A DNA stretch of 64,000 bases from Bacteroidales bacterium (GCA_046329965.1 JAXLTR010000011.1:142418-206417); one strand, 5' to 3'; counted from the stretch's first letter, positions 15,093-60,403 are shown. Notes: generated by a model not told the origin, from the sequence alone. Numbers and translations: made by a program.

Positions 15093-15125
15093 GATAAATA
15101 GATAACATAAAATATCATATTCAAA

Positions 15126-16616: not shown

Positions 16617-16687
16617 GTAAAATTTAGCTACAACCTTTGTGTAGTATAACAATTAATTGATTTAAAAACCAATTTAATAAAAAAATA

Positions 16688-17284: not shown

Positions 17285-17366
17285 TTGGTCATTTGCGATG
17301 GTATATTTCTCAAAGAAAAAACTATAAAAGAATCTAATAAAATTTCAATAAAAAATAAAATTACCT

Positions 17367-19599: not shown

Positions 19600-19626
19600 G
19601 AAAATCTAACTTAACCTAATTATCAA

Positions 19627-23473: not shown

Positions 23474-24676
23474 ATGTCAGAACTTATAAATAACAGTACA
23501 ACCCGTATCAATCGATTGTATGAATTTGCGCATCGCTTTATAGATGGTGAAAATGTAAATTCTTTAATTAATGATTACCAAGAACTTAACAAAAGTATCA
23601 CCGCCATTGAAACCATGCAAGTATTAGATTTGTTGTTGTTAAAGGGTTATTCTCTTGAAAAAGTTAAGCTAAATGTTGGTAAGCTCATCAATGTTTATTA
23701 TAAATCGCTAAATTCAAACAACTGGGAAAAGCCAGGCGAAGGCCATTTCATTTATTACATGATGCAGGAAAACAATGGAGCAAGAAAAATAATGACTGCC
23801 TTAAAACCTTTGATCAGAGAAATTCATAAAAGAGATTTGGGAGTAGATTCTGAACCTGTTTTGCAACTTAAATTGTTGCTTAACAAGCTGAAAGATTTTG
23901 AATTACATTACATAAAGAAGGAGAATATACTTTTTCCATATATTGAAAAAATATTTCCTCAGTATCGCTGCCTGCAAATTATGTGGTCCTTTCACGATGA
24001 TTCCAGAAAAAGCATGAAATCTTTGGAAAATATCTTGCAGGCAGGTAAACTCGACAAGAATTTATTAAATATTGAATTGGGAAAACTGTTTTTTGCAACA
24101 TTACCAATCATTTTCAGAACAGAGCAAATTTTATTTCCAGTGGCCTTCAGTACAATATCTGAAGAAGGATGGGACGAAATGCTGGATCAAAGTTTTGAGG
24201 CAGGCTGGTGCTTTGGTGTAAAACCTCAAAGAACCCAAAATCAAAAAAAAACGGAAACTACCCATGAAGGGAAAATTAACCTGGACACAGGATTTCTATA
24301 TCCAGCCCAACTAATTTTGCTTTTCGAAAACCTTCCGGTAGACATAACTTATGTAGATGAAAACGATGAAGTTTGTTACTTTTCGGGGGCCAAACACAGG
24401 ATATTCCCACGTTCAAAGGCAATTATTGGCCGCAAAGTACAAAACTGTCATCCACCTGAAAGTGTTCATATTGTGAATGAAATTGTGGAAGCATTCAGAA
24501 ATGGGAAAAAAGAAAAAGCCGATTTCTGGATTCAGATGAAAGGACGTTTTATTCACATCCGCTACTTTGCTTTGCGCAATGAAAATGGTGAATATAAAGG
24601 AACTATTGAAGTAAGCCAGGATGTTACTGAAATTAGGGCATTAGAAGGAGAACAAAGATTATTGGACTGGTACTAA
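23474..24676 (+). CDS. DUF438-family protein (second paralog; hemerythrin-like + PAS-like)
   Basis: 400 aa. The C-terminus 'CHPPESVHIVNEIVEAFRNGKKEKADFWIQMKGRFIHIRYFALRNENGEYKGTIEVSQDV' is closely parallel to 4524-5771. Confidence 0.7.
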   Translation: MSELINNSTTRINRLYEFAHRFIDGENVNSLINDYQELNKSITAIETMQVLDLLLLKGYSLEKVKLNVGKLINVYYKSLNSNNWEKPGEGHFIYYMMQENNGARKIMTALKPLIREIHKRDLGVDSEPVLQLKLLLNKLKDFELHYIKKENILFPYIEKIFPQYRCLQIMWSFHDDSRKSMKSLENILQAGKLDKNLLNIELGKLFFATLPIIFRTEQILFPVAFSTISEEGWDEMLDQSFEAGWCFGVKPQRTQNQKKTETTHEGKINLDTGFLYPAQLILLFENLPVDITYVDENDEVCYFSGAKHRIFPRSKAIIGRKVQNCHPPESVHIVNEIVEAFRNGKKEKADFWIQMKGRFIHIRYFALRNENGEYKGTIEVSQDVTEIRALEGEQRLLDWY

Positions 24677-24687
24677 TAATAACAAAT

Positions 24688-25182
24688 ATGAAAAAAAATT
24701 TAATCCTATGTTCATTCATAATTCTATTAAGTTCTGCATCCTCATTAGCTCAAACTGATTGGGGTTACTGGTATGAAACAGATTGTTCGAAAGGTTTGGA
24801 ATTCAGGGTTAAGCGCCTGGAATGCAACCAGCATGAAAAAAAGTACAAATGGGCGGTACAATTCAGAAACAAGTACCAGCATGATATCCATTTTAATTGT
24901 ATAGCCGTTGAACCGCAACGTGAACGCGAAATTAAAGCCTTGGGAAAAGCCTCCGACAGATTTCACGTGGAAAGACTAACGAAAATGGTCATGCATGGTT
25001 TCAGGTTGATTCGCAGAAACGATGAGTACGACGATTTCAACTCCCTGGCATTCTGTTTGAGTTCAACCGAAACCCAAAAAAGCGGTGCATGTGCGTGGTA
25101 TTTATACAGTCATAAGAACCGTTCCCACGGCTATCAGCTATGTAAAGAGCTAGGACTGTCTGTCATATGTATTAAAGAATAA
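24688..25182 (+). CDS. Exported hypothetical protein
   Basis: 164 aa. It has the signal peptide 'MKKNLILCSFIILLSSASSLAQ', starts 11 nt after the DUF438 stop, and has no recognisable domain. Confidence 0.5.
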   Translation: MKKNLILCSFIILLSSASSLAQTDWGYWYETDCSKGLEFRVKRLECNQHEKKYKWAVQFRNKYQHDIHFNCIAVEPQREREIKALGKASDRFHVERLTKMVMHGFRLIRRNDEYDDFNSLAFCLSSTETQKSGACAWYLYSHKNRSHGYQLCKELGLSVICIKE

Positions 25183-25297
25183 AACAAGAGATAGAAACCG
25201 GGAACTAGTATTATGTATAATTTGTTTGAAAATCAAAAATAATGTAATTGTCAATATTGTAAAGTGTTATTAATATATCAACAAAACAAAATTTATT

Positions 25298-27007
25298 ATG
25301 ATAAAATATTTGCTGATAATCCCGCTGTTTACGTTTTCTGGATTTGCAGTTTGTGCACAACAAACCAATTCAATGTATTCACAAGCTCAAGACAGACTTA
25401 ACCCCATTGCACATACCAAGCCAATAACCGCCCTGGCAACTTCGGCAGACGGCAAGTGGCTGGCATCGGCCTCTTCGGGCGACGGGGTGGTAATTATTTG
25501 GAATCTGGAATCAGGCAAAATGAAACAGCGCTTCAGGTTAGATAAGGAGGCTATCGACCGGATTCTTTTCAGCTTCGATAACCAAATCCTTATTTTGGCT
25601 TGTAACCGCGAACTGGTTTTTTTGAATTCAGCCACAGGCATAATTCAAAAAGTAGTACCTTTTCAACAACCCATTAGCTCATTCTGCCCCTCACCGCTTT
25701 ACGACAGGCTTTTTGTAACTACCGGAAATCCACCATTTTTTTCGCAGCCTGTCGATTCAACAAGTGAATTTCTGATATACTCCCTGACAGAAAATAAGAT
25801 TGAAAGAAAGTTCCTTTTTTTTCAGCCCATAAAAAAGGTTGAATTTGTTCTCGAAACCAATTCGCTTGCCCTTGCCTTTTATGACGGGAATATCAGCCTG
25901 CGAGATTATATGGGGTATGAAATTACAAAACACACATTTTCTTACAAACCAACAGTACAAACGGCAATTATTCCTGACAATACCATTATTATAGCCTCCG
26001 GAAATCAGCTTCAGAAAAGAAATCTGCTTTCGGGTAAGGATGAGGGTTCTATCAAAATACCCGGTTTAGTTTCTATTCAGGATATGAAAATTGGCGATAA
26101 CAGCTCGGTTATGGTTATCCTCAGCAATTATCCAAAACCCATAGTCAGAAAAATCAACCTGGTTAACGGAGAAACCATTAACCAATGCCGGTTGGCCTCA
26201 AATGCCAGCGTATTAATGACAGATAATAAACAAAAAACACTTTTTGTGACCGATGGTGAAACCATTCGTATTGTTGATTTAGAATCGCTCAAAACTATTA
26301 AAATTCTTGGCGGACACAACGAATGGATTACCTCGTTAAACCTTGATATTCAGAAAAAAGAGTTATATACTTTAACCGGCGATTCTTTAAAATTCACATG
26401 GAATCTGAAATCAGGTAAACTTACAGCAGCAAGCAAATTGCCAAAGATAGAATTAACAAATGCCTTTACCTTACCGGAAAATAAATCAAAAATACAATTG
26501 CTAGGCTTCGACCGACAAATCATTATTAATTATTCCGATACGTACGACCCTATAAATGGGATATTCTCTAAGGCTGACACCTTAAAAGCCAGCGATGGTT
26601 TCAAATTCAATTCGGCAGTTTTATCTCCTGATGAAGAAAAATTGGCCATTGCCTGTTCCGACGGAACAATCAGAATGTTCAGTTTAACTCATATGAAATT
26701 TACAGGCCGATTCATCGGACATAGTTCAGGTGTTACTACTATGGTTTTTTTGAACGATAACCTGTTGTTCTCCGGCTCGGAAGACCATACTGTAAAATTA
26801 TGGGCGGTCGTTGATTTTAGTCTATTAGCTACACTTGTAACCTTAGGTGAAAAAGATTGGATTGTATTCGACGAAGACTGCAAATACCATGCTTCGGCGA
26901 AAAATTTATACGAACAATTCAATGAAACAAATTTCGGTTCAGAAAAAATAAATATCCGATTTGAGCCAAATTTATTATCAAAGATTTTTAAGAAATATCC
27001 AAAGTAA
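25298..27007 (+). CDS. Exported WD40-repeat (beta-propeller) protein
   Basis: 569 aa with a signal peptide. WD-type blades include 'HTKPITALATSADGKWLASASSGDGVVIIWNL', 'GHNEWITSLNL' and 'GHSSGVTTMVFLNDNLLFSGSEDHTVKLWAV'. Confidence 0.8.
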   Translation: MIKYLLIIPLFTFSGFAVCAQQTNSMYSQAQDRLNPIAHTKPITALATSADGKWLASASSGDGVVIIWNLESGKMKQRFRLDKEAIDRILFSFDNQILILACNRELVFLNSATGIIQKVVPFQQPISSFCPSPLYDRLFVTTGNPPFFSQPVDSTSEFLIYSLTENKIERKFLFFQPIKKVEFVLETNSLALAFYDGNISLRDYMGYEITKHTFSYKPTVQTAIIPDNTIIIASGNQLQKRNLLSGKDEGSIKIPGLVSIQDMKIGDNSSVMVILSNYPKPIVRKINLVNGETINQCRLASNASVLMTDNKQKTLFVTDGETIRIVDLESLKTIKILGGHNEWITSLNLDIQKKELYTLTGDSLKFTWNLKSGKLTAASKLPKIELTNAFTLPENKSKIQLLGFDRQIIINYSDTYDPINGIFSKADTLKASDGFKFNSAVLSPDEEKLAIACSDGTIRMFSLTHMKFTGRFIGHSSGVTTMVFLNDNLLFSGSEDHTVKLWAVVDFSLLATLVTLGEKDWIVFDEDCKYHASAKNLYEQFNETNFGSEKINIRFEPNLLSKIFKKYPK

Positions 27008-27060
27008 AAATGAATAGTATAATTATACAATATATTTTTATTCTATATAAACTATTTTTT

Positions 27061-27789
27061 ATGAAAATTAAGTATTTAAATCTGATTTTTGCGTCTGTCG
27101 CATTTTCTATTATTTATAAATTAGATGTCAAAGCACAAACTAACAACCCTGAAATTTTTTCTGAAATAAAAAAAATTATTAAACAGGACAATCCGGCAAT
27201 TAACGAGCAATTTGATTATTATTTTTACGAAAAAAAGTTATTTGAAGAAGCATACACCAAATACAGTTCCATGTTTTTGGTTAATAACGAAGACAAAGGT
27301 AATGAATCTTATCAATCGATTGATCTTACTTCGGTTAAATCAATGAATTATAGCATTCCGCCGAATAAAGATTTTGTCTACATTATAAAGTTTCAAATAT
27401 CAAACGGTTCAAAATCAGAAGTAATAAAATTGTCGATTTTAGGAGATTATCCAAATCGCAAACATAAAGACGGATACTGCATGTATCATCTTGCCGATAA
27501 AAACGGAAATTTTTATTCTTTTATAACTGCAACAGACGTTAACAATCATCGTTACGAATATCCTGAAAATAACCCGATAAAATGTAATAAAAACGGTTGG
27601 ATTATTATAAACGTAGCTAAAATTGGCGATAAATTGTTTTTTATAGATTTATTGGAAGAAACGGTTTTACACACGGCATACCTGCCCGATGAACTAAAAA
27701 ACCGGACATTATCTTTCAGGCCGACATTTATGCTAAAACCGCGTACTCAGGTCCAAGTAGATTGGGTCGGAATTTGGGTTACAAAATAA
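27061..27789 (+). CDS. Exported hypothetical protein
   Basis: The ORF track starts at 27010. The ATG at 27061 gives the signal-like 'MKIKYLNLIFASVAFSIIYKLDVKAQ'. No domain was recognised. Confidence 0.45.
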   Translation: MKIKYLNLIFASVAFSIIYKLDVKAQTNNPEIFSEIKKIIKQDNPAINEQFDYYFYEKKLFEEAYTKYSSMFLVNNEDKGNESYQSIDLTSVKSMNYSIPPNKDFVYIIKFQISNGSKSEVIKLSILGDYPNRKHKDGYCMYHLADKNGNFYSFITATDVNNHRYEYPENNPIKCNKNGWIIINVAKIGDKLFFIDLLEETVLHTAYLPDELKNRTLSFRPTFMLKPRTQVQVDWVGIWVTK

Positions 27790-27840
27790 TCCGCTTACTA
27801 AAATTAAATATCAAATAAAAACCTTTTAAAACATTTTTCT

Positions 27841-29412
27841 ATGAAAAAATTCATTATTCTGCTGTTTATCGCATTACTAATTACTAATACAAATGCTCAA
27901 ACTATAAAAAACCTTAAAGGCGAAGAGGTTAAATTCTGGGATATTTTTGAACAGCCCAAAGACAACAAACCGCTGATAATATATACGTGGTCGTACAGCA
28001 ACTGCGGGAAATGTTCTTTAATTTTAGACAAATTAAACCAAAGCTTGCCCGAATTAAAAGAAAAATATGGTTTACGAGTTATTGCTATAAACACCGACAA
28101 TGCTGAAGCATTAAGAATTAAATTCCCGGAAATGTTTGCAAAATATCAAAACTCGGTAAAAAATTTCGTGAACGCACAAATTCAACAAAAAGGCTGGAAT
28201 TTTGAATCCTATTACGATGATAATAATGCACTTAAAAACGAATTAAATATGGTTATAGAGCCGCATGTAATTATTTCGGTAAATAAGGAAACTGTTTTTG
28301 CTATGAAAGGCATTATGAAAAATGGAAATAACCAGCCCGACGCTAATATCAGCTTAAATTATGTTTTAAGAATTTTAAAAAGTATATACGAAGACCAAGT
28401 ATGTTATTTTGACGAAAATTGGAAATATATATTAGAATACGAAAAACCGGTTTACAAAAGAGAAATAATTAAGACCGGTAACATGTATGAAATTACAGAC
28501 AGTTGGATTTCGGGCGAAATTCAAATGAAAGGTTATTTTAAAGACAGATTTGTAAACCATAATGAAGGCAAATGCACCTGGTACTATAAAAACGGAAATA
28601 AAGAATCTGAAATAAATTTTAAGGAAAACATTGAGTCGGGAATAGAAAAGGCCTTTTACGAAAACGGAAATTTGAAATTTGAAGGAATTAATTTAAAAGG
28701 AAAACGCGAGATGGAATGGTCTTTTTATGATATTAAAGGAAAATTAACCGAAACCGTTTATTACGAAAAAGGCATAAAAATTAAAGAAGAAAAAATTGCA
28801 GACCCTTCAAACGCATGCGAAGGAAACTGCTCGAAAGGGGTCGGAAAAATTGAATCAGAAAACGTAACTTATATAGGCGAATTTAAAGACAATAAAGTAA
28901 CCGGACTCGGAACTTTTTACCTGCCCAACAATGAGTTTTATTTCGGAACTTTCGATAACAATTTACCACATGGATTAAATTATCATGTTTATTCAAATTG
29001 GGAATTTGATGTCAGCTATTTTAACCACGGCGAAAAATCTGAAACCAAAATTAACGCTTACAAAGCAATTGACGATTTGGATTTGAACAAAAGCGGTTGC
29101 GTATCGGGCGATTGCAAAAACGGATACGGAGTTTACATTTTTAATGGAAATTGGGACGGAGATATTTATTTCGGAACATGGAAAAACGGGCTTAGGGACG
29201 GGATTGGAAATTACTACTATAAAAACGGTGCAATTTACAATGGAGAGTTTAAAGAAAATCATTTATCAGGAAAAGGAACTTACTTTTTTGAAACCGGAGA
29301 CGTATTTGTCGGAAACTGGAAAAATAACTTACGACACGGCAAAGGTTTGTATATATTTAACGATTTAACATCTAAGAAAGGTCTTTGGGTTGAAGACAAA
29401 TTCACTAATTAA
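27841..29412 (+). CDS. Exported thioredoxin-like (TlpA/ResA-type) domain fused to YwqK-like and MORN repeats
   Basis: 523 aa with a signal peptide. 'PLIIYTWSYSNCGKCS' is a CxxC in a Trx-like context. The middle 'WYYKNGNKESEINFKENIESGIEKAFYENGNL' is MORN-variant. The C-terminus 'YFGTWKNGLRDGIGNYYYKNGAIYNGEFKENHLSGKGTYFF' is canonical MORN. Confidence 0.72.
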   Translation: MKKFIILLFIALLITNTNAQTIKNLKGEEVKFWDIFEQPKDNKPLIIYTWSYSNCGKCSLILDKLNQSLPELKEKYGLRVIAINTDNAEALRIKFPEMFAKYQNSVKNFVNAQIQQKGWNFESYYDDNNALKNELNMVIEPHVIISVNKETVFAMKGIMKNGNNQPDANISLNYVLRILKSIYEDQVCYFDENWKYILEYEKPVYKREIIKTGNMYEITDSWISGEIQMKGYFKDRFVNHNEGKCTWYYKNGNKESEINFKENIESGIEKAFYENGNLKFEGINLKGKREMEWSFYDIKGKLTETVYYEKGIKIKEEKIADPSNACEGNCSKGVGKIESENVTYIGEFKDNKVTGLGTFYLPNNEFYFGTFDNNLPHGLNYHVYSNWEFDVSYFNHGEKSETKINAYKAIDDLDLNKSGCVSGDCKNGYGVYIFNGNWDGDIYFGTWKNGLRDGIGNYYYKNGAIYNGEFKENHLSGKGTYFFETGDVFVGNWKNNLRHGKGLYIFNDLTSKKGLWVEDKFTN

Positions 29413-29492
29413 TATGATTTCGGTTTATCATAAAAATCATACTAAAAACACTTTACAAGCAAAATCTATAAAATAAATTAAAATATAAACAA

Positions 29493-30083
29493 ATGAAAGC
29501 AATCTTCATTCTCATTCTTGTATTAGCAACGCCAAACTTAAACCTGTTTTCGCAATACAGCTATACAGAATACAAAAAGACCCGGCAAATTTACATTGAA
29601 AATTTTAAAAATAAAGGTGGTAAAGTAAGGATAGAAGCAGGAAATATTGAACCAAACAGGTATATTGAGAGTTTTGCCTTTCCGGAAAACATAAATTTTG
29701 AAATTGAAGGCGAATTGGAGAATATAAATGCTACGCAAAACAAGCATGGTATTGCCGGTATTTATTTTGGTTACTATGCCTTTTGCATCAACTCAAAAAG
29801 TGAGTTTTCAATTATGGTCGATGGTGAAGGGATATACAGTACTTTTAATTTTACACAATCCGACAAAATTAAAAAAGGCAAAAACAAACTTACTCTGCGG
29901 AGAATTAGCGATACGTATTATTTCTTCATCAATGAGACTTTTGTATACCAAACAAAAGATGTTTCGGTATTAGATATTCTGGAAGAAGGGGTGCTTGGTT
30001 TCCTGGCTATGCACAATACGAGTTTATATGCATATAAATTAGAGGTGAATCATATTGAAAGCATTTATTCTGCAACAAGGTAA
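29493..30083 (+). CDS. Exported hypothetical protein (possibly jelly-roll/LamG-like)
   Basis: 196 aa with a signal peptide. 'NKLTLRRISDTYYFFINETFVY' is reminiscent of concanavalin-like lectin folds. This assignment is weak. Confidence 0.4.
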   Translation: MKAIFILILVLATPNLNLFSQYSYTEYKKTRQIYIENFKNKGGKVRIEAGNIEPNRYIESFAFPENINFEIEGELENINATQNKHGIAGIYFGYYAFCINSKSEFSIMVDGEGIYSTFNFTQSDKIKKGKNKLTLRRISDTYYFFINETFVYQTKDVSVLDILEEGVLGFLAMHNTSLYAYKLEVNHIESIYSATR

Positions 30084-30129
30084 ACTATAAAATTGATGCA
30101 ATACAAACACAAATAAAAACAAATTTACA

Positions 30130-30588
30130 ATGATTGGACATTTTTATAGAATTTTTGTGATTTCTTTTCTATTATTATTTGCCGGATGCCATATCTTAGC
30201 TCCCAACACCACCTGCCATCGTTGCTCGTATTACAGCTTTGATGGAATTGCCGTCCATTTAGCCGATTACAACATTATGGCCAAAAAACAGGTTTCGGAA
30301 AATGAATTTTTAGGGAGGAAAACCATTTATTTGCAAAAAGATAAAACCTATACCATCTATTTTAAACAATGCGAACCTCCTGTCTATACCATTAAGTGTC
30401 AAATATTTGACATTCAGGAAAATACTGGTAAAGACCTTATGGTATTGGCCGGTTTTACCTGCAATAAACAAACAGAGGCATACACCACATTTAGGATTAG
30501 TGAAACGAAAGAATATGAAATACAGGTGCTTGCAAATAAAAAAGTGGATGTGAGAATTAACCTGGGCCTGGCCAATGAAAACAGATGA
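30130..30588 (+). CDS. Lipoprotein, hypothetical
   Basis: 152 aa. It has the lipobox-like 'LLLFAGC'. Confidence 0.45.
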   Translation: MIGHFYRIFVISFLLLFAGCHILAPNTTCHRCSYYSFDGIAVHLADYNIMAKKQVSENEFLGRKTIYLQKDKTYTIYFKQCEPPVYTIKCQIFDIQENTGKDLMVLAGFTCNKQTEAYTTFRISETKEYEIQVLANKKVDVRINLGLANENR

Positions 30589-30615
30589 GTGCTATATAAA
30601 TAAATATTGCTTATT

Positions 30616-33600
30616 ATGAGATTATTAGAAACCAACAATTTGGAAATTAAAAGATGTGTTATTCTACTTTTTTTAGTTTTTATAACTGCCTTAAGTGCCA
30701 GTGCCCAAATAACAGAAAATGAAAAATACCTGGTATCGAAAACATTAAACCTTAGTGAATTAATCCAGTTAGATGATGATTATTTTTTAGTAAAAAGCAT
30801 TAAGGAAAAAAAGTGGGGTGTATTTGAAATTTCGGTTGATGGAGAAAATTTCAATTATCACAAACCATTGCTTTCGTGCAAATATGATACAATTGAGGGT
30901 TGGTTCAATAACAATGAACCTTTTCTTACTTTGAAAAAGAATAATAAGTATGGAATGTTTCTTAATCCATTTGAACAGGAAGTAAGAGAAGCATCTATAA
31001 ATTTAGAATTCGATTCATTGATAAGTATCAGGAAAGATGATGGCTATTATGCTATTGCCAAGAAAAAGAACAGGTGGGGATATGTAGACTGGCAAAACAA
31101 CACCATGCAGGATTTTAATTACAATAGTAAAGGTGATATTTTAAAACAACTATTTTCTGACAATACAGGAAATGATATCCGGCTTGTTTTTCAACATCCT
31201 GAATTATTAAAACCTAACGAAGTGCTTTTTTCTGAAAATAAGCACTATATGGCCATTTCTGAAATAGATTTGGCTTACGGAAATATAGTTTATTCATTGT
31301 ATACCACAAATCCTCCTGCATTAATAAGCTCAAATAAAATTGAGCTGGAGGAAAATAAACCGGTAATCGAAGCCATAAGTAACGATGGAAAATACTTTAG
31401 GATAGGCTGTTATACAAAAAATAGGTTTATAGCTTTTTATGATGTCAATGCTGAAAAATTGATTTACGGTAACCCTGATAAAATTAAACTGGATGTTCAA
31501 TATTTGAGTTCACATGGTTGCATATCAGGAAATTACGAAATTGACTGGAGGAATAAAGAAACGCTTAGAATAGTCAACAACCTGACTAAGATTGTCAGAA
31601 ACCTTGATAATAAAATATATGGGTTGAAAGATTATAGTGGGCAACGTGTTCAAATTTCGCCCGATGGGCAATATTTGGGGATTTATGAAAATAAAGTGCT
31701 TAGGATATGGGATACTTATAAAAATGAAATTGTATGGACTTCGCCAAAACAAAGTTTTTTTACAGAATATACTGAATTTGCCTTATTAAGCAACAACATA
31801 GTGGCAAGTACAAAGGTGTTGGAAAATCAAAAGGACGCCCATTTGTATTGGTTCGATTTTATTAAGAAAAAGGTGTTATTTAGCACCAATTATCAGACTT
31901 TTAATTCAATTCACTTTGTTAGTCAGTTTAATCAGGATCTTTTAATAGCCAATATAGATTCCGGTAAGAATACAATTAATTCAATTTCAAAGATTAACCT
32001 GGCAAGTGGAGCATTCACTGCTACAAAACCGGTGAACACTGGTTTTAAAGAATATAATGGTTTGGTACAGTCCTTTCTCGATTCATTAAAAAAGGCACAC
32101 CCACAGCAATTTGATTATTACGAGAAAAACAGGCAAAGCTTTTTTAGTTGGTATGCCATGTATGCAAAATATTTTAATGAAAATGGAACCATTAAAGACA
32201 GTTCTCAAAAATGTCAACTCGATGTTTCATTTTTCGAACCGATTAAAACACATTGGCTACCAGTAAGATATGAAATAATCAATGCACTTGACAATAAGGC
32301 CTGTTACCAGGATATTTCGGATCAGATTGAATTTCTTGTTCATAAATCTGCCCTCAGAAAGGAGTTACTGTTTTGGAACGGTAATAAAGTTCCTGATGAA
32401 CGAAAAGTTACAATGCTTTATACAAAGAATGGGGCACCTTTCTTTTACACTCATGATGGATATTACTTTGGCAGTAAGGAAATTGCAGGTTTTTTAAGGT
32501 TTGCCCACAAAGGCAAATCCTATGCATTCGAGCAATTTGATTTAAAATTTAACCGGCCTGATATTATTTTAGACCGTTTGGGCTATGCCGATAGTTCAAT
32601 AATTAATTTTTACCGGAAAGCCTATTATAAGCGGCTTCAAAAATACGGTTTTGACCATAAAGATTTGAATAGCGATAGGCACACGCCTGAAGTGCATATT
32701 GCCAATGAAGATGATTTACTAAAAACATTTACCCAAAAAGAGTTGATAATTAGATTAGAAGCCTCAGACAGTATTTATAAGTTAAACCGTATAAATGTTT
32801 GGATAAACGATGTTCCTGTTTTTGGTGTCAACGGGATAGATATCAGTAAATTAAACAAGAATAACTACAAAGATGAAATAAGCATCCAACTAAGCCACGG
32901 CAGAAATAAAATTCAGGTATCGGCACACAACAACAATGCAATAGAAAGCCTGAAAGAAACATTTTATGTTGATTATCAGGAAAAAATCATCCAAAAGCCT
33001 GATTTATATTTTATAACTATTGGGATTTCGAAATACGTCAATCCCATGAATAACCTTGCCTATGCCGATAAAGATGCCAGGGATCTGGTCCAGATGTTCA
33101 AGGCCAGAAGCGACATTTATAAAAATATCAGGATAATACCCCTTCTCAATCACAATGCAACAAAAGCAGGGATATTGTCGCTTAAAGACTCGCTAATGAA
33201 CTCGAAAACCGAAGATCATGTAATTTTGTTTTATGCAGGCCACGGTACTATTGGCGACGATGGGCAGTATTATATTTGTAATACCGACATCAGAAATGAC
33301 AATATTGTTGAAAGTGCTTTGCCATATATGGACTTTGAGGCGATACTCGATGGTATACCTGCCCGGAACAAGCTTTTGCTTATAGATGCCTGTCATTCTG
33401 GAGAAGCGGATGATGAAGACATTAAAATTGCGGAAAACAGTCCGGAACTTGGAAATACAAAAGCCCTGAAATTAAATTATATCCCACGTAAAATTACTCA
33501 ATCAACAACATATAATTCGCACACAACATTTGATTTGATGAAATCTCTTTTTTCTGATTTGCGACGAAATACAGGGGCAACCATTATTGCCTCAGCAGGG

Positions 33601-33825
33601 GCCGGTGAATTTGCCTACGAAGGTGGGGATATATCAAACGGTGTTTTTACCTATTTCTTAATAGAAGCATTGAAAAGCAAACAGGCAGATTACAATAAGG
33701 ATAACATAATTACAGTTAGTGAACTCGTTGATTTTATTTCAATAAAAGTACAAGAACATACTTCAGGAAAACAGAACCCTGGCAGGCGAAGTGAAAACCT
33801 TACATTGGATTTTGAAATTTGGTAG
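30616..33825 (+). CDS. Exported multidomain protein: WG-containing repeats + propeller-like region + C-terminal caspase (peptidase C14) domain
   Basis: The track starts at the TTG at 30607, and the ATG at 30616 is preferred. It has the signal peptide 'CVILLFLVFITALSASAQ' and WG repeats ('KKWGVFE', 'NKYGMFLN', 'NRWGYVDW'). The caspase dyad is 'VILFYAGHGT' (His codon 33241-33243) and 'LLLIDACHSGEA' (Cys codon 33391-33393). Confidence 0.8.
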   Translation: MRLLETNNLEIKRCVILLFLVFITALSASAQITENEKYLVSKTLNLSELIQLDDDYFLVKSIKEKKWGVFEISVDGENFNYHKPLLSCKYDTIEGWFNNNEPFLTLKKNNKYGMFLNPFEQEVREASINLEFDSLISIRKDDGYYAIAKKKNRWGYVDWQNNTMQDFNYNSKGDILKQLFSDNTGNDIRLVFQHPELLKPNEVLFSENKHYMAISEIDLAYGNIVYSLYTTNPPALISSNKIELEENKPVIEAISNDGKYFRIGCYTKNRFIAFYDVNAEKLIYGNPDKIKLDVQYLSSHGCISGNYEIDWRNKETLRIVNNLTKIVRNLDNKIYGLKDYSGQRVQISPDGQYLGIYENKVLRIWDTYKNEIVWTSPKQSFFTEYTEFALLSNNIVASTKVLENQKDAHLYWFDFIKKKVLFSTNYQTFNSIHFVSQFNQDLLIANIDSGKNTINSISKINLASGAFTATKPVNTGFKEYNGLVQSFLDSLKKAHPQQFDYYEKNRQSFFSWYAMYAKYFNENGTIKDSSQKCQLDVSFFEPIKTHWLPVRYEIINALDNKACYQDISDQIEFLVHKSALRKELLFWNGNKVPDERKVTMLYTKNGAPFFYTHDGYYFGSKEIAGFLRFAHKGKSYAFEQFDLKFNRPDIILDRLGYADSSIINFYRKAYYKRLQKYGFDHKDLNSDRHTPEVHIANEDDLLKTFTQKELIIRLEASDSIYKLNRINVWINDVPVFGVNGIDISKLNKNNYKDEISIQLSHGRNKIQVSAHNNNAIESLKETFYVDYQEKIIQKPDLYFITIGISKYVNPMNNLAYADKDARDLVQMFKARSDIYKNIRIIPLLNHNATKAGILSLKDSLMNSKTEDHVILFYAGHGTIGDDGQYYICNTDIRNDNIVESALPYMDFEAILDGIPARNKLLLIDACHSGEADDEDIKIAENSPELGNTKALKLNYIPRKITQSTTYNSHTTFDLMKSLFSDLRRNTGATIIASAGAGEFAYEGGDISNGVFTYFLIEALKSKQADYNKDNIITVSELVDFISIKVQEHTSGKQNPGRRSENLTLDFEIW

Positions 33826-33975
33826 TATGGTTTCAAAATATTCGAAATTCAAGATTATAAAGGCAAAGTGCGGATAAAATCAGGCTATTGAAAATTGAAA
33901 AGCCTAATTTTTGAGTACTTTTATACAATTAAATTTTTCGACTTTTCCAGGAAAATAATAAATCAGAAAACTCTT

Positions 33976-34749
33976 ATGGAAATAGTAATAATTTGTTTGG
34001 CTGCTTTTTTCACTGCCGTTCTCACCTTCTTTTCAGGCTTTGGGCTGGGAACGATTTTAGCTCCCGTTTTCGCGATATTTTTCCCAATTGATATTGCTAT
34101 CGCACTCACAGGCGTAGTGCATTTCTCGAACAATCTTTTCAAGATTGCATTAGTCGGAAAAAATACCGATAAAGCTGTTTTACTCCGTTTTGGGATACCT
34201 GCAATTCTAGCCTCGTTTGCCGGGGCCTGGTTGTTACTAAAAATCACCGTATTACCAACGCTTCTTCAATACGAACTTTGGGGTAAAGAATTTGAAATTA
34301 CACCTGTGAAACTAATCATTGCATTACTATTAATGGTGTTTTCAATACTCGAAATATCTCCTTCATTCCAAAAAGTTCAGTTTAGTAAAGACAAATTAGT
34401 ACTGGGAGGTATTCTAAGCGGGTTCTTTGGTGGCTTATCGGGCATTCAGGGAGCAATACGCAGTGCATTTCTAATAAAAAGCGGGCTATCCAAAGAAGCG
34501 TATATTGGAACAGGAGTAATAATTGCCTGTTTGGTTGATTTTACAAGACTTTCGGTTTATGCTTCACATTTTACCTCGGCAAACCTGCACGAAAACCTTA
34601 CACTATTAATTTCGGCAACACTTGCCGCAATAGCAGGTGCTTACTATGGGAAAAGTGTGCTTAAAAAAGTAACCTTACGGAGCATTCAACTCATAGTAGC
34701 AGTAATGCTTATTCTTATTTCTTTGGCATTGGGTATCGGTTTAATATAA
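33976..34749 (+). CDS. TauE/SafE (TSUP) family anion permease
   Basis: The track starts at the TTG at 33895. The ATG at 33976 gives 'MEIVIICLAAFFTAVLTFFSGFGLGTIL', the typical TSUP start. The protein is polytopic and Gly-rich. Confidence 0.78.
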   Translation: MEIVIICLAAFFTAVLTFFSGFGLGTILAPVFAIFFPIDIAIALTGVVHFSNNLFKIALVGKNTDKAVLLRFGIPAILASFAGAWLLLKITVLPTLLQYELWGKEFEITPVKLIIALLLMVFSILEISPSFQKVQFSKDKLVLGGILSGFFGGLSGIQGAIRSAFLIKSGLSKEAYIGTGVIIACLVDFTRLSVYASHFTSANLHENLTLLISATLAAIAGAYYGKSVLKKVTLRSIQLIVAVMLILISLALGIGLI

Positions 34750-34781
34750 AAAACAACAGCTGTAAAACAATTAATAATTTA

Positions 34782-34889
34782 TTTTCGCCTATTATTGGTT
34801 CGTCCAATGATTATAAGTCCTTTGTTCCCCGTTTTATTGTTGGGTTAGTGTTTGTGTCTGAAGGGATTCAGAAATTTCTTTTTCCCTGA
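34782..34889 (+). pseudogene. Stub of a DoxX-family membrane protein gene (N-terminal helix only, no start codon, premature TGA)
   Basis: The translation '...YKSFVPRFIVGLVFVSEGIQKFLFP*' matches my memory of the first TM segment of DoxX proteins ('GLVFLSEGIQKFLFP'). The frame ends at the TGA at 34887-34889 with nothing DoxX-like downstream. Confidence 0.45.
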
Positions 34890-35016
34890 TTCGACGTATC
34901 TGTGTTCCAATTTTTGTTTGAAGCTGCGTTAGGAATTAATCAGCTTAAAAATTCATTTAATTTTCTACTATTAAATCATAAATATTACTTTAGCAGTCTA
35001 TTGACAAACAATTCAT

Positions 35017-37782
35017 ATGGCAGTCCAGGCAAATTTTACCGAAGAAAAAAATAAACTAAAGCAATACTTGAAAAGTGATAGTAATGAAGATGCAAAACGT
35101 CCTTTAATATATCCTCTCTTTCATAAATTGTATAAGGATAAATTCAAAATTGAATCGGATGCACATGGTGCCGATGTTTATATCGAAGGCCAAATAATTG
35201 TTGAATGTAAAACATCATACGCCGACTGGCTTGATGGTTTTTATCAGGCACTGCATTACCACAAAAAACATGGGCTGGTTTATTCCATTGTAATGGTTAT
35301 TGCCGAAAAATTTGTAGGTATTTGGCGTGTAAACCAATTAACCGAATATGCTGTTCTATTATCGCACACGGCCGATGCCAACAAAGCCCCAAATGTAATC
35401 GGTAAAGAAAATGCACGAAAAACAACCCAGGCCAATAAAAAACAAATACAGGAATCTGCAATCTATTGGCTCGAGCCCAAAGATCTTTCAGGTGATTTTT
35501 TCAAAGGTGAAGGAAAAAGTATTGACTATGAATTGCATGAAATACTAAACATCCTTAAAAATCCTGCTATCGAAAGGTTACAGATGAACACCCGCAACTT
35601 TATCGAACATATTGAACTCCTTAAAAAATTCTTCGACAATCCGCTCGATGCTGTCCATTGTTTCTATTCCATTGTGGCTTATTGGGATATCACATCGGTT
35701 GTTTCAACAAATGAATATTCCGATAAAATACGGATTGTAGGCTTTAAAGGACAAAAGCACAGCGACGAAGTAAGCATTAAACCATCTTTGTTCAAGAACT
35801 TTAAAAAGTTTGTCGAAAGCCGCTTTATATTTACCAACGAAGGTTCGGGGCTTACAGTCGATTATTATTTTAGCCGTTTCGATGAAGTAATGGCCCGTAT
35901 TGATCCGGAATATGTAAAACAGCATGGTATTTTCTTCACCGATATCAACCTGAGTAAATTTGCCCTTTGGTTTGCCAAAGACAAAATGAGCGAACAATTA
36001 GATGAACGTTACGTTTGGTTCGACCCTGCCGGCGGTTCGGGCAACCTGATTTCGAGCTGGAGGGGAAAACTGAAACATAAAATCATTTCAGAATTACAAC
36101 CCGATTTGTTGCGGATTATCGAGCGCCGTATGCGTATTGATCCGTGGCATGTCGAAACAGGGTTTACCATTATCCCTAAAACATCCGAAAATAAAGGGCT
36201 TAATTTTCTCGATTGTGGGGCAAAGGAATATGTTACTGAATTGGAAAAAGAGCTGAAACTCAAAAACCTTTTTATTGACAAACCGCTGGCATTTCTTTTG
36301 AATCCGCCTTATAAAAATACCGACGAAAACGAAACCGTACGCGAAAGTGCCGATTCAAATTACCGGATAAACAAAGATATACTCAAAATTACAGGCGAAG
36401 ATGCAGGCAAGGAACGTTACCTGGCATTTCTTGGGCAAATACTGAATATTGCAAAATACCAAAACGAACAAAACCCTGATTTTGAACCTTTGGTTTTGAT
36501 TTTTACACCTACATCGTGGTTAATTCCACGCCCTACTTACGTTAATTTCCGCATAATATGGGATACCCATTTCGAATATACCGATGGATTTATAATCACC
36601 AGCAACGAGTTTTTTAAATTACAGGGAAAATGGCCGCTTGCTTTTACCATATGGCGCTATAAACCAGATGAAAAAAGGGAAAATCACGTAAAAGCTTATG
36701 ATTTTACCAGTATTAAGCACGATGATTTAAATATCAATTGGAGTTTAGGAGACGAAGAGTTGAAGCTTTTAATTAACAATATCTTAAAAAATCAACAAAT
36801 AATTAAACTGGATAATTCAAGAGGTGAAATAAAGGAATCTCTTCCAGCTATCTTGCACAGAAATGGCAAGTATATTCGTCAAACAAGATTTGATTTTAGT
36901 CATGCAAAAAAGAATGAGGATGATAAAACAATAATAAGTGGATTTCCTTTGAATGATAAAACTAGACATTTCGAATTAAGCCGTGTTTGTGGAAATTTAA
37001 ATGGCGAATTTATTGGTTTTATGGACGATAATACACCTGTAAGATTAAAACAAGAATCATTAAGTCGGTTAACAAATAAACCAGATAGAATTTGGTTTAG
37101 ATTAGATAATGATTTTAAAGGTACCAATAAATCAAAAATATTTAATGGACCTTCCGATAATCGAGGATATTGTGCTTATGATATTGAATCGAGCAAGGCC
37201 ACTTTTTCATGGTTTGTAATTACTAAAGCATTAAATGGTATTTACCCAATTTGGGCAAACCAATTTGATATCTGGATTCCAGATATCAAACCGGAACAAG
37301 AAAAATACTGGCATTCCCTATGTTTTGCATTTGTTTTGGCCGAAAACCGCTGTGTAGTGACCAAATTTGAGAAAGACAATCCGGTACAAGGTGCACCCGA
37401 AGTATTTGTTGATAATCCTTTGTGCCCGGCCAACCCTGATGCATTTTGGGCAACAACGCTCGATAAAGAAGTTTTAAAAGAACACGGATTGGCTTTTGCC
37501 CTTGTAAACAAAATAAAAGAACTTTACAAAACATGGAATGTAAATTATTGCAAAGGTCAGTATTTACAAAACGTTGGCCTTGAAAATGAACCCTATTTCA
37601 AGTATTTCGATTATGATGATTTCCTTACCCCTTATTCGGGTTTAATCCAAATCCGCAAATATGCCGAAATCAATTCCTGTTCCGATTTATTGGATTTATT
37701 TACAGAAATACAGGCTTTAACCAAAAAAGTAAAAGAAGAAATTTACAGGCTTCTGGTGGTTGAATTTAAGTATTTTGAATAG
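35017..37782 (+). CDS. Single-polypeptide PD-(D/E)xK nuclease + gamma-class N6-adenine DNA methyltransferase fusion (Type IIG/IIL, MmeI-like architecture)
   Basis: 921 aa. The N-terminus 'GADVYIEGQIIVECKTS...FYQALHY' gives D53...E63-x-K65 (35173-35211). Motif X-like is 'HGIFFTDINLSKFALWF', motif I is 'WFDPAGGSGNL' (36016-36048) and motif IV is 'NPPY' (36301-36312). About 450 aa at the C-terminus are unassigned (a TRD candidate). No partner genes are present. Confidence 0.7.
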   Translation: MAVQANFTEEKNKLKQYLKSDSNEDAKRPLIYPLFHKLYKDKFKIESDAHGADVYIEGQIIVECKTSYADWLDGFYQALHYHKKHGLVYSIVMVIAEKFVGIWRVNQLTEYAVLLSHTADANKAPNVIGKENARKTTQANKKQIQESAIYWLEPKDLSGDFFKGEGKSIDYELHEILNILKNPAIERLQMNTRNFIEHIELLKKFFDNPLDAVHCFYSIVAYWDITSVVSTNEYSDKIRIVGFKGQKHSDEVSIKPSLFKNFKKFVESRFIFTNEGSGLTVDYYFSRFDEVMARIDPEYVKQHGIFFTDINLSKFALWFAKDKMSEQLDERYVWFDPAGGSGNLISSWRGKLKHKIISELQPDLLRIIERRMRIDPWHVETGFTIIPKTSENKGLNFLDCGAKEYVTELEKELKLKNLFIDKPLAFLLNPPYKNTDENETVRESADSNYRINKDILKITGEDAGKERYLAFLGQILNIAKYQNEQNPDFEPLVLIFTPTSWLIPRPTYVNFRIIWDTHFEYTDGFIITSNEFFKLQGKWPLAFTIWRYKPDEKRENHVKAYDFTSIKHDDLNINWSLGDEELKLLINNILKNQQIIKLDNSRGEIKESLPAILHRNGKYIRQTRFDFSHAKKNEDDKTIISGFPLNDKTRHFELSRVCGNLNGEFIGFMDDNTPVRLKQESLSRLTNKPDRIWFRLDNDFKGTNKSKIFNGPSDNRGYCAYDIESSKATFSWFVITKALNGIYPIWANQFDIWIPDIKPEQEKYWHSLCFAFVLAENRCVVTKFEKDNPVQGAPEVFVDNPLCPANPDAFWATTLDKEVLKEHGLAFALVNKIKELYKTWNVNYCKGQYLQNVGLENEPYFKYFDYDDFLTPYSGLIQIRKYAEINSCSDLLDLFTEIQALTKKVKEEIYRLLVVEFKYFE

Positions 37783-56641: not shown

Positions 56642-56703
56642 TTATTATAATTTCAGTAGTTATTTTAAATTAAATATATGATTTGTTTTATAATTATTCA
56701 ACA

Positions 56704-58116: not shown

Positions 58117-58147
58117 TGGGATATAAATCTTTAAATAAAATTTAAAT

Positions 58148-59125: not shown

Positions 59126-59129
59126 AAAT

Positions 59130-60338: not shown

Positions 60339-60403
60339 TAATTTTTAAATAAAATACGATTGATTTCATAATATGAATTTTTAACTATTTAATTCTAAAC
60401 CTC

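What the first reader, a model, noticed from the sequence alone, without database searches (positions are those of the whole stretch)
24688..33825. Seven co-directional genes all encoding exported proteins: WD40, thioredoxin-MORN and a WG-repeat/propeller/caspase protein
- **Seen, export:** every product from 24688 to 33825 starts with a signal peptide or lipobox: SSASSLAQ, GFAVCAQQ, KLDVKAQ, ITNTNAQ, NLNLFSQ, LLFAGC and LSASAQ.
- **Seen, spacing:** gaps between genes are 11-115 nt. The first gene begins 11 nt after the DUF438 sensor-type gene.
- **Seen, recognisable modules:** there are WD40 blades (25298-27007), a CxxC thioredoxin-like domain fused to MORN repeats (27841-29412), and a 1069-aa protein ending in a caspase/C14 domain with an intact His/Cys dyad. 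The other four proteins have no domain I can assign.
- **Known:** bacterial caspase-like (orthocaspase) proteins with WD40/TPR partners are usually discussed as cytoplasmic conflict or programmed-death modules, often with NTPases. Here everything is predicted to be extracytoplasmic and no NTPase is present.
- **Inference:** this may be a periplasmic or surface proteolytic sensing/effector system of unknown role. Candidate roles are envelope surveillance, interbacterial or anti-predator action, or processing of exported substrates.
Basis: partly seen in the sequence, partly recalled or inferred. Interest (0 to 1): 0.6.

Follow-up and report, generated by a model that had tools for sequence, protein, structure and literature searches.

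The report
Mosaic cluster of exported proteins with caspase
Seven neighbouring genes in a Bacteroidales genome do all encode exported proteins, one of them a caspase-like protease, but the set is not kept together in related genomes, so it looks like a variable patch of accessory envelope genes and not a dedicated seven-part machine.

Summary
There are seven co-directional ORFs (24688-33825), each with a signal peptide or lipobox. Six have a Bacteroidota 'Q-rule' cleavage site. The WD40, thioredoxin-MORN and C14 caspase modules (His/Cys dyad intact) are real, and there is no NTPase.

- In a close relative (L003; flanking genes 81-87% identical) only g1 (first 95 aa) and g6 persist. g2-g5 are replaced by four unrelated exported proteins, and g7 plus TauE are absent.
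- The 70% ortholog of g7 sits alone in a different context.
- In 80 metagenomic loci carrying the g7 C-terminal module, g1, g3, g5 and g6 never occur.

Export of g7 is not unusual either. Its C-terminal 490 aa belong to a widespread family (at least 486 metagenomic relatives) of about 1100-aa signal-peptide-WD40-linker-caspase proteins.

One link survives. The MORN module of g4, the ConA-like domain of g5 and WD40 repeats are all found fused to exported caspases elsewhere.

Best reading: a variable genomic slot of accessory exported proteins, including one stand-alone periplasmic propeller-caspase peptidase. Interest is modest.

The parts
24688..25182 (+). g1: 164-aa exported Cys-rich protein (signal ...SSLA|Q), no assignable domain
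   Evidence: ORF. N-terminus. No Pfam hit. Only residues 1-95 are conserved (86%) in relative L003; the C-terminus is replaced.
25298..27007 (+). g2: 569-aa exported WD40 beta-propeller protein (signal ...VCA|Q)
   Evidence: Pfam WD40 and many beta-propeller models. Absent from L003 and L001. A WD40-only neighbour of a g7-type caspase occurs in 1 of 80 loci.
27061..27789 (+). g3: 242-aa exported protein (ORF opens at 27010; annotated start M18; signal ...VKA|Q), no domain
   Evidence: No Pfam or NCBIfam family. Single-sequence AF2 model was poor, pLDDT 47. No homolog in L003 or in the 80 loci.
27841..29412 (+). g4: 523-aa exported thioredoxin-like (AhpC/TSA, CxxC at 28003-28014) protein fused to MORN repeats (about 28498-29409)
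   Evidence: Pfam, motifs. No full-length homolog among 5.8 billion proteins. The MORN part is most similar to exported MORN-caspase fusions.
29493..30083 (+). g5: 196-aa exported single-domain protein of a ConA/LamG-like family (signal ...LFS|Q-YSYTEY)
   Evidence: Exhaustive HMMER search found 26 distant homologs. The matched region overlaps Laminin_G_3 and GH43_C2 hits. 4 of 26 homologs carry a C-terminal Peptidase_C14 and 1 carries WG_beta_rep. The family shares a signal peptide followed by a Q-S-N-Y-S-D-Y-type start.
30130..30588 (+). g6: 152-aa lipoprotein (lipobox LLFAG|C), no domain
   Evidence: The mature part is 94.5% identical in L003, but the signal/lipobox region is unrelated.
30616..33825 (+). 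g7: 1069-aa exported protein (ORF opens at TTG 30607): signal peptide, three WG-like motifs, beta-rich propeller-like region, conserved linker/Ig-like module, C14 caspase domain
32329..33015 (+). g7 linker module (about aa 575-803; FEQFDLKFNRPD motif, helices plus Ig-like sandwich), conserved with WD40-caspase fusions
   Evidence: 36-45% identity to P0003-P0007 and to 80 metagenomic loci, starting at residue about 575-612. pLDDT 65-90. Faint Glucodextran_B hit.
33016..33825 (+). g7 Peptidase_C14 caspase domain; catalytic His879 (33241-33243) and Cys929 (33391-33393)
   Evidence: Pfam 67.9 bits. The dyad is invariant in A1 and A2. Foldseek match to the MALT1 caspase domain, TMt 0.70.
30574..34932 (.). 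4.36-kb segment (g7 plus TauE) with no counterpart in relative L003, where the g6 ortholog is followed directly by the 921-aa gene
   Evidence: blastn/tblastn of window against L003. No flanking repeats.
23474..24676 (+). Upstream cytoplasmic hemerythrin/PAS_10 sensor-type gene ending 11 nt before g1 (not part of the exported set)
   Evidence: Pfam. No signal peptide. Absent from L003.
19627..20970 (+). Conserved left flank: MFS (NarK-like) transporter following narGHJI
   Evidence: 81% aa identity in L003 and 92% in L004.
35017..37782 (+). Conserved right flank: 921-aa methyltransferase/restriction-like gene (NPPY, DPAGGSGN, PD-ExK motifs by eye)
   Evidence: 87% aa identity in L003. Patchy 51-65% relatives across many phyla.

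Best explanation
The seven genes are not one conserved machine. They fill a variable slot in a nitrate/NO-respiration neighbourhood, between narGHJI-narK on the left and a mobile restriction-modification-like gene plus a NorB-like gene on the right. The slot has been filled piecemeal with accessory genes for exported proteins.

Shown: each product has a Sec signal (six SPase I sites exposing Gln, one lipobox), and none has a T9SS C-terminal domain. Inferred: all therefore end up in the periplasm or attached to a membrane facing it.

The only enzyme-effector is g7. It is a divergent member of a widespread family of about 1100-aa exported proteins built as signal peptide, beta-propeller, helical/Ig-like linker and C14 caspase domain.

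Inferred mechanism for g7:
- It is a stand-alone periplasmic cysteine endopeptidase.
- Its N-terminal WG/propeller-like region selects or gates substrates, as propellers do in prolyl oligopeptidase, DPP-IV and tricorn.
- It probably cleaves after Arg/Lys, because it keeps the acidic residues D823 and D927 flanking the metacaspase-type DACHSG site.

g4 is a periplasmic TlpA-like thiol:disulfide oxidoreductase tethered by MORN repeats. In other bacteria the same MORN module carries exported caspase, trypsin, papain or retropepsin domains, so it acts as a general targeting or binding module. g5 is a single ConA-like lectin-type domain and g2 a free WD40 propeller. g1, g3 and g6 remain unassigned.

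Co-location of WD40, MORN and ConA-like genes with a caspase gene most likely reflects a shared pool of shuffling exported-protein modules in this lineage, not an obligate complex.
For: - Relative L003 (flanks 81% and 87% aa identical, 93% nt downstream) keeps only g1 residues 1-95 and the mature part of g6. g2-g5 are replaced by four non-homologous exported proteins, and g7 plus TauE are missing.
- The breakpoints fall at or inside gene boundaries: the g6 signal peptide is swapped and the g1 C-terminus is swapped.
- The only full-length relative of g7 (P0002, 70%) has none of the six partners within 10 kb either side.
- In 80 loci (925 kb) encoding the g7 C-terminal module, g1, g3, g5 and g6 occur in 0 loci, g4 in 2 (weak MORN_2 only), and a WD40-only neighbour in 1.
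- No neighbour family recurs in more than 11 of the 80 loci.
- The family is large and exported: at least 486 tblastn-confirmed relatives; 65 complete ORFs with median length 1123 aa, 55-59 of them with signal peptides, typically starting signal peptide + ELVLQTGHS.
- Caspase fold and dyad are confirmed.
- MORN is fused to several exported protease classes.
- No Por_Secre_tail hit in any of the seven.
- The literature already records exported metacaspases (PMC3501461, PMC3914696, PMC3355149).
Against: - Three of the six partners carry domain types that are strongly enriched in fusions with exported caspases. By my count, 57 of the 119 listed non-self hits to g4 carry Peptidase_C14 in the precomputed Pfam column. 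4 of 26 homologs of the g5 domain do. WD40 is fused to caspase in 42 of 43 WD40-positive ORFs in the surveyed loci. Adjacency of such genes to a caspase gene is unlikely to be pure chance.
- The equivalent slot in L003 also contains an exported caspase (279 aa, 26% identical to g7) plus six exported small proteins. A functional theme may therefore persist although the sequences do not.
- The short gaps and the absence of terminator-like sites between the genes are compatible with one transcript.
- Only one close relative with both flanks was available.
Confidence: 0.6

Rival explanations
1. Split exported-caspase module. g7 works together with g2 (WD40), g4 (MORN-thioredoxin) and/or g5 (ConA-like) as trans-acting recognition or regulatory subunits. 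This would be the multi-gene equivalent of the fused signal peptide-WD40-caspase, MORN-caspase and ConA-like-caspase proteins. The result would be a lineage-specific periplasmic sensing/proteolysis system for envelope surveillance or inter-bacterial conflict.
For: Rosetta-stone type fusions exist for all three domain types. A g5-like domain is also fused to WG repeats in P0172. Intergenic gaps are short and no terminator-like sites lie between the genes. An exported caspase is also present in the L003 slot. Tandem clusters of exported caspase-family genes are common (16 of 80 loci; L002; P. torquis GI-15, PMC3914696).
Against: No gene-level co-occurrence was found anywhere. g4 has no full-length homolog at all and g7 has only one, so any such system would be confined to this lineage. 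MORN-caspases have a different conserved partner, a Peptidase_C1/DUF4384 gene, which is absent here. The fusions show that these domains serve caspases in cis, not that free copies serve them in trans.
Confidence: 0.2
2. Envelope genes of the nitrate/NO-respiration regulon. The cluster is co-transcribed with the hemerythrin/PAS gene 11 nt upstream. It would supply periplasmic maturation or protection functions during anaerobic respiration or nitrosative stress, for example the TlpA-like redoxin g4 for cytochrome or Cu-centre assembly and a protease for damaged envelope proteins.
For: The 11-nt gap to the hemerythrin/PAS gene. The neighbourhood contains narGHJI, two NarK-like MFS genes, a COX1/NorB-like gene and an Rrf2-like regulator. 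In L003 the g1 ortholog and the other exported genes follow ScdA/hemerythrin/NorB.
Against: The exported gene content differs almost completely between the two relatives while the respiration genes are conserved. The g7 ortholog P0002 and the 80 family loci are not in respiration contexts. No expression data are available.
Confidence: 0.12
3. Assembly artefact. The cluster is a chimeric join in a metagenome-assembled genome, so adjacency of the genes is not biological.
For: The source is a MAG. GC content is lower in 26-32 kb (0.32) than in the flanking nar genes (0.40).
Against: Independent Logan assemblies of two runs reproduce the hemerythrin/PAS-g1 and g1-g2 junctions exactly. The flanks are syntenic with L003 and L004. 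The strand, the spacing and the Bacteroidota-type signal peptides are uniform throughout.
Confidence: 0.03

Closest known systems
Bacterial orthocaspases / metacaspase-like C14 proteins with WD40 repeats (surveys PMC3501461, PMC5756287, PMC6426788)
   Same: C14 fold, His/Cys dyad in FYAGHG and DACHSG motifs, and fusion to beta-propeller protein-interaction repeats. The 2012 survey already flagged about 15% with an N-terminal helix that is likely a signal peptide, and 30 as extracellular.
   Different: Studied examples (cyanobacterial MaOC1 and similar) are cytoplasmic. The g7 N-terminus is not recognisable as WD40 by Pfam. g7 carries a conserved 230-aa linker/Ig-like module specific to the exported family.
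Psychroflexus torquis genomic island 15: cluster of WD40 metacaspases with signal peptides (PMC3914696)
   Same: Bacteroidota; a genomic-island location; several large WD40/metacaspase proteins predicted to be secreted; function unknown.
   Different: There the WD40 repeats and caspase are fused and present as four paralogs, together with CHASE2 and LytTR regulators. Here there is one caspase plus separate WD40, MORN and ConA-like genes, with no regulator in the cluster.
NTPase-dependent conflict systems with caspase effectors (EACC1-associated caspases, STAND/NACHT-caspase; PMC8195603 and related work)
   Same: A caspase-like effector combined with repeat 'sensor' domains, and a variable, rapidly turning-over gene neighbourhood.
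   Different: No NTPase, no EACC1, and the NCBIfam caspase_w_EACC1 score is below its cut-off (75 against 140). All components carry export signals, so the compartment differs.
Exported MORN-caspase fusions paired with a Peptidase_C1/DUF4384 gene (P0026-P0045; L120-L123)
   Same: The g4 MORN module, including the C-x-S-G-D/N-C-x-N-G-x-G motif, is 33-49% identical to theirs. Both are exported with Q-rule signal peptides.
   Different: g4 carries a thioredoxin-like domain in place of a caspase, and the window has no C1/DUF4384 partner gene.
Propeller-gated periplasmic peptidases (prolyl oligopeptidase / DPP-IV S9 family, tricorn)
   Same: Architecture of a beta-propeller followed by a peptidase domain, with a periplasmic location in Bacteroidota. 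Foldseek places the g7 model next to these structures.
   Different: A different catalytic clan (serine S9 against cysteine clan CD). The resemblance concerns likely mode of action only and rests on a low-confidence N-terminal model.
Exported clan-CD cysteine peptidases of Bacteroidota (gingipains C25; C11 enzymes such as fragipain and PmC11). From my own knowledge, not tested here.
   Same: Caspase-hemoglobinase fold, Sec export, and action outside the cytoplasm in Bacteroidota.
   Different: Different families (C25, C11). Gingipains use a T9SS C-terminal domain, which g7 lacks.

Membership tests
Peptidase C14 (caspase/metacaspase/orthocaspase) | Pfam PF00656 match above the gathering score | tested here: met
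   67.9 bits against a cut-off of 21.4, residues 804-1069.
Peptidase C14 (caspase/metacaspase/orthocaspase) | Catalytic His and Cys in the conserved motifs | tested here: met
   H879 in FYAGHG and C929 in DACHSG. Both are invariant in 13- and 7-sequence alignments.
Peptidase C14 (caspase/metacaspase/orthocaspase) | Caspase-hemoglobinase fold | tested here: met
   AF2 pLDDT is 75-90 over most of 610-1069, apart from a low-confidence loop at about 929-983. Foldseek match to the MALT1 caspase domain, TMt 0.70.
Peptidase C14 (caspase/metacaspase/orthocaspase) | Proteolytic activity and P1 specificity (Arg/Lys for orthocaspases) | not testable with these tools
   Only inferred from the conserved Asp residues flanking the active-site motifs.
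Exported propeller-linker-caspase family (about 1100 aa; delineated here) | N-terminal Sec signal peptide | tested here: met
   g7 has ...SASA|Q. 55-59 of 65 complete family ORFs are signal-peptide-like.
Exported propeller-linker-caspase family (about 1100 aa; delineated here) | Conserved C-terminal module of about 490 aa (linker plus caspase) | tested here: met
   36-45% identity over residues 575-1069 to P0003-P0007 and to 80 loci.
Exported propeller-linker-caspase family (about 1100 aa; delineated here) | N-terminal WD40 propeller recognisable by sequence | tested here: not met
   No WD40 or WG_beta_rep Pfam hit in g7 residues 1-600, even at E<=10. The only support is a low-confidence beta-rich model resembling propellers.
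NTPase-linked caspase conflict systems (EACC1/STAND type) | Associated NTPase or EACC1 component; caspase_w_EACC1 model above its cut-off | tested here: not met
   NF047832 scores 75 bits against a cut-off of 140. No NTPase domain in the seven genes or their flanks. PADLOC gives only generic caspase/WD40 hits.
Conserved multi-gene system / operon | Gene content and order conserved in related genomes | tested here: not met
   L003 keeps 2 of 7 genes, partly. L001 keeps 1 of 7. In 80 family loci g1, g3, g5 and g6 occur in 0 and g4 in 2, weakly.
Conserved multi-gene system / operon | Co-transcription | not testable with these tools
   Promoter and terminator scans are at chance level. No TAnnTTTG motif lies in any intergenic gap.
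TlpA/ResA-like periplasmic thiol:disulfide oxidoreductase (g4 N-terminal domain) | Thioredoxin-like fold family match, CxxC motif, export signal | tested here: met
   AhpC-TSA 33.7 bits against 26. C55-G-K-C58. Signal ...TNA|Q. Redox activity was not tested.
Type IX secretion cargo | C-terminal Por_Secre_tail/CTD domain | tested here: not met
   No such Pfam hit in any of the seven at E<=0.1. g7 ends with the caspase domain itself.

The most novel reading that the evidence does not exclude
The WD40 (g2), MORN-thioredoxin (g4) and ConA-like (g5) proteins are free, trans-acting recognition subunits that dock onto the exported caspase g7. Together they would form a modular periplasmic ligand-sensing protease whose sensor cassettes are exchanged between strains by recombination within this slot: an extracytoplasmic, NTPase-free counterpart of cytoplasmic caspase conflict systems. 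The exported caspase in L003 with its different set of small exported proteins would be another allele of the same arrangement.
Probability: 0.12. Interest if true: 0.65.

Novelty: new member of a known kind. Interest (0 to 1): 0.3.

Why it matters
As reported, the seven-gene 'system' is not a unit, so it does not open a new class of machinery.

The follow-up does show that exported propeller-, MORN- and lectin-caspase proteins form large families with no functional characterisation that I could find. There are at least 486 metagenomic relatives of the g7 module alone. The literature on bacterial caspase homologues concentrates on cytoplasmic cell-death and defence roles.

A biochemical study of any one member (localisation, P1 specificity, substrates) would fill a real gap. 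g7 is an atypical member with a non-WD40 N-terminus.

The slot itself holds non-homologous but uniformly exported gene sets in two relatives. It is a small, concrete example of rapid turnover in the accessory secretome of Bacteroidales.

Tried and rejected
- Scan of genome contigs with g4 as query: no relatives.
- A concatenated query of mature g1+g3+g5+g6 against the 5.8-billion protein set returned nothing, not even the MAG's own proteins, which are in the collection. It failed its positive control and I treat it as uninformative, not as evidence of orphan status.
- Sigma-70-type promoter, Bacteroidetes -7 motif (TAnnTTTG) and terminator scans: counts at or below shuffled expectation, and nothing in the intergenic gaps. 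Operon structure stays undecided.
- Repeat search for insertion signatures around g7/TauE or the whole cluster: only short chance matches in AT-rich DNA.
- Single-sequence AF2 of g3: pLDDT 47, unusable. No fold search was attempted on it.
- Sequence search of g7 against PDB chains: no hit at E<=0.01.
- PADLOC: only generic caspase and WD40-like hits. I rejected filing it as a known defence system.
- Alignment A1 (13 sequences) was too diverse for the locus search, so I replaced it with A2.
- The 33 loci with relatives of the 921-aa flank gene were no closer than 65% identity and carried none of g1-g7. They were useless as synteny anchors, but they show that the flank gene is mobile.
- Remote homology between the replaced genes (g2-g5 against L003 157/190/273/192) was tested with blastp and phmmer --max: none.

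Full report
OBSERVATION. The public annotation of the source, a Bacteroidales MAG with a 344-kb contig, starts g3 at M18 (27061) and g7 at the ATG at 30616. With these starts the gaps are 11, 115, 53, 51, 80, 46 and 27 nt.

Export signals. All seven N-termini have a basic n-region and an uncharged hydrophobic core. Six end in A/S followed by Gln (SLA|Q, VCA|Q, VKA|Q, TNA|Q, LFS|Q, ASA|Q). This is the Bacteroidetes 'Q-rule' for signal peptidase I substrates (PMC5837995, PMC10653852). g6 has a lipobox, LLFAG|C. Comparative support exists. The g7 ortholog P0002 has a diverged signal peptide but the same ...SQ|I(S/T)EN junction. The g6 ortholog P0152 has an unrelated signal sequence that still ends in a lipobox, LLISSS|C. 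g5 shares a signal peptide followed by a Q-(S/N)-Y-S-x-Y start with its whole family. No dedicated signal-peptide predictor was available.

Domains. WD40 in g2, AhpC/TSA plus MORN in g4 with C55-G-K-C58, and Peptidase_C14 at g7 residues 804-1069 are all confirmed. H879 and C929 are invariant in alignments. No NTPase is present.

The upstream gene scores as PAS_10 plus hemerythrin, not DUF438. WG repeats in g7 are three motifs seen by eye; Pfam does not detect them even at E<=10. The g7 'propeller' rests on a low-confidence AF2 region (pLDDT 35-60) that Foldseek matches to WD40 and other propellers.

Chance. About 8 of 41 other genes in the window look exported. Seven in a row is therefore non-random, roughly 1e-5 to 2e-4 per start position. 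Runs of exported genes are normal in this phylum, though: four consecutive at 56683-63607.

IS IT A CONSERVED UNIT? NO. The first test is a close relative. The 90%-identity cluster of g6 led to a 26.5-kb Logan contig, L003. Its flanks are syntenic with the window: the NarK-like MFS gene at 81% aa identity, and the 921-aa gene at 87% aa and 93% nt identity. Between these flanks L003 carries, in order:
- an exported stand-alone 279-aa caspase on the opposite strand;
- ScdA/hemerythrin, a second hemerythrin gene and NorB;
- six co-directional exported proteins: a g1 ortholog (conserved only for residues 1-95), four proteins of 157, 190 (FISUMP domain), 273 and 192 aa, and the g6 ortholog.

g2, g3, g4, g5, g7, TauE, the hemerythrin/PAS gene, the PLP enzyme and the YARHG gene are all absent from L003. 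The replaced genes show no remote homology to the window genes. The homology blocks start and stop at or inside gene boundaries. The g6 match begins right after the lipobox Cys. The g1 match ends at codon 108. The downstream match resumes 84 nt before the 921-aa gene. g7 plus TauE is therefore a 4.36-kb indel, with no flanking repeats.

The second test is the nearest g7 relative. The only other full-length relative (P0002, 70% identity) lies on a 57-kb contig among histidine-kinase, LytTR, peptidase and TonB-receptor genes. None of the six partners is within 10 kb either side.

The third test is the wider family. A profile of g7 and its six best relatives retrieved at least 486 metagenomic relatives. 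In the best 80 loci (925 kb), tblastn finds g1, g3, g5 and g6 in none, g4 in two (weak, MORN_2 repeats only) and TauE in one. A WD40-only neighbour occurs once. No neighbour family is shared by more than 11 of the 80 loci.

WHAT g7 IS. Residues about 575-1069 are 36-45% identical to a large family. This region comprises a helical segment with a FEQFDLKFNRPD motif, an Ig-like sandwich and the caspase domain. Its 65 complete ORFs have a median length of 1123 aa. 55 score as signal-peptide-bearing and four more look so by eye. They typically begin signal peptide + ELVLQTGHS, which is a WD40 propeller.

g7 and P0002 are divergent members in which the WD40 part is replaced by WG-like motifs and a beta-rich region. 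The C-terminal half of the model is confident, and the caspase part superposes on MALT1 (TMt 0.70). There is no T9SS C-terminal domain, so I infer a periplasmic location.

Exported caspase homologues are not new as a category. The 2012 survey found N-terminal helices (likely signal peptides) in about 15% of prokaryotic metacaspases and classed 30 as extracellular (PMC3501461). Secreted WD40 metacaspases cluster on a Psychroflexus torquis island (PMC3914696). A secreted caspase-YARHG protein was also noted (PMC3355149). I found no functional study of such proteins.

THE OTHER GENES. g4 has no full-length homolog. Its MORN half, including the C-x-S-G-D/N-C-x-N-G-x-G motif at residue 420, is most similar to exported MORN-caspase fusions of about 800 aa. 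By my count 57 of the 119 listed non-self hits carry Peptidase_C14. Others carry trypsin, papain or retropepsin domains, and nearly all have signal peptides. The MORN module therefore looks like a general binding or targeting module for exported enzymes, here attached to a TlpA-like redoxin. Two MORN-caspase genes in unrelated contexts are each followed by a Peptidase_C1/C39_2/DUF4384 gene. That partner is absent from the window.

An exhaustive HMMER search with g5 found 26 distant homologs. Almost all are exported, and the matched region overlaps ConA-like models. Four of them end in a caspase domain, usually via a Glucodextran_B-type Ig domain, and one carries WG_beta_rep repeats.

g1, g3 and g6 remain unassigned. 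PADLOC gives no match to a known defence system.

INTERPRETATION. The best-supported reading (confidence about 0.6) is a variable slot inside a nitrate/NO-respiration neighbourhood. On the left are narGHJI, two NarK-like genes and hemerythrin sensors; on the right are a NorB/COX1-like gene and an Rrf2-like regulator. The slot has accumulated accessory genes for exported proteins next to a horizontally mobile RM-like gene, which has 51-65% relatives in many phyla.

Within it, g7 is a stand-alone periplasmic propeller-caspase peptidase. I infer substrate gating or selection by the N-terminal region, by analogy with propeller-peptidases that also appear among the fold matches. I infer Arg/Lys specificity from the conserved acidic residues around the metacaspase-type active site. 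Neither inference has been tested.

The main rival (confidence about 0.2) is that g2, g4 and g5 act in trans with g7. It draws on the striking enrichment of exactly these domain subfamilies in cis-fusions with exported caspases. It also draws on the presence of a different exported caspase in the L003 slot. It has no gene-level co-occurrence behind it. A respiration-regulon reading (about 0.12) and an assembly artefact (about 0.03; the junctions are reproduced in independent assemblies) are less likely.

VERDICT. g7 is a new, atypical member of a known but uncharacterised kind: exported propeller-caspases. The seven-gene set is a lineage-specific mosaic, not a system. Interest 0.3.

Noticed in passing
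L003 1676-2515 (-) and 7030-10468 (+): In the close relative, the same slot holds a different set of seven exported proteins, all with Q-rule or lipobox signals. One is a stand-alone 279-aa caspase only 26% identical to g7. The export property and the presence of a caspase persist although the sequences are not homologous.
   Followed up: partly
window 30130-30192 against L003 10001-10075; window 25013-25182: The mature part of g6 is 95% nt identical to its L003 ortholog, but the signal-peptide/lipobox region is unrelated (the breakpoint is right after Cys+1). g1 shares only residues 1-95 and has a different C-terminus. This points to intragenic recombination at module boundaries.
   Followed up: partly
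window 35017-37782 (+): This 921-aa protein has no Pfam family, but by eye it has DPAGGSGN and NPPY methyltransferase motifs and an N-terminal D...E-x-K nuclease-like motif. Relatives at 51-65% identity are scattered over Bacteroidota, Gracilibacteria, Leptospiraceae, Ignavibacteriota, Nitrospirota, Verrucomicrobiota and others. It is probably a mobile type IIG-like restriction-modification enzyme.
   Followed up: partly
L120/L121 8001-11783; L122/L123 8001-12071: Exported MORN-caspase genes in two unrelated genomic contexts are each followed immediately by a Peptidase_C1 + Peptidase_C39_2 + DUF4384 gene. This looks like a conserved two-protease pair that I have not seen described.
   Followed up: no
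proteins P0026-P0066 and others; g4 residues 420-432 (window 29098-29136): MORN-caspase fusions begin, directly after the signal peptide, with a conserved G-C-[IV]-S-G-[DN]-C-x-N-G-[YF]-G motif (two Cys). g4 carries the same motif internally. It may be a disulfide-stapled cap of the exported MORN module.
   Followed up: no
L109 7584-8345 and ten other loci; L101 6839-7477; L062 3219-3959; L044 11982-12653: Subfamilies of the exported WD40-caspases have a small (210-260 aa) exported protein immediately adjacent. By eye these look like 8-10-stranded outer-membrane beta-barrels. One such family occurs in 11 of the 80 loci.
   Followed up: no
window 4524-5771 (-) and 23474-24676 (+): Two paralogous hemerythrin/PAS-type sensor genes both start MSELINNS. 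They lie within a nitrate/NO-respiration neighbourhood: narGHJI 11481-18086, NarK-like genes 18061-20970, a COX1/NorB-like gene 37874-39484 (-) and an Rrf2-like regulator 40085-40504 (-).
   Followed up: no
window 21050-21739 (+): An exported YARHG-domain protein (signal ...YLSA|Q) lies 3 kb upstream of the cluster. It is conserved (92%) next to narK in relative L004 but absent from L003. YARHG has been reported fused to a secreted caspase in Bradyrhizobium (PMC3355149).
   Followed up: partly
L002 7684-24743: A Bacteroidota genome (GCA_038317155.1) carries four consecutive giant genes (747-1706 aa) combining caspase, WD40 and ankyrin domains. This is another tandem island of caspase-family proteins.
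   Followed up: no
(tool behaviour): A concatenated multi-protein query to the word-indexed protein search returned no hits at all, not even the constituent proteins known to be in the collection. Negative results from such queries should not be trusted.
   Followed up: yes
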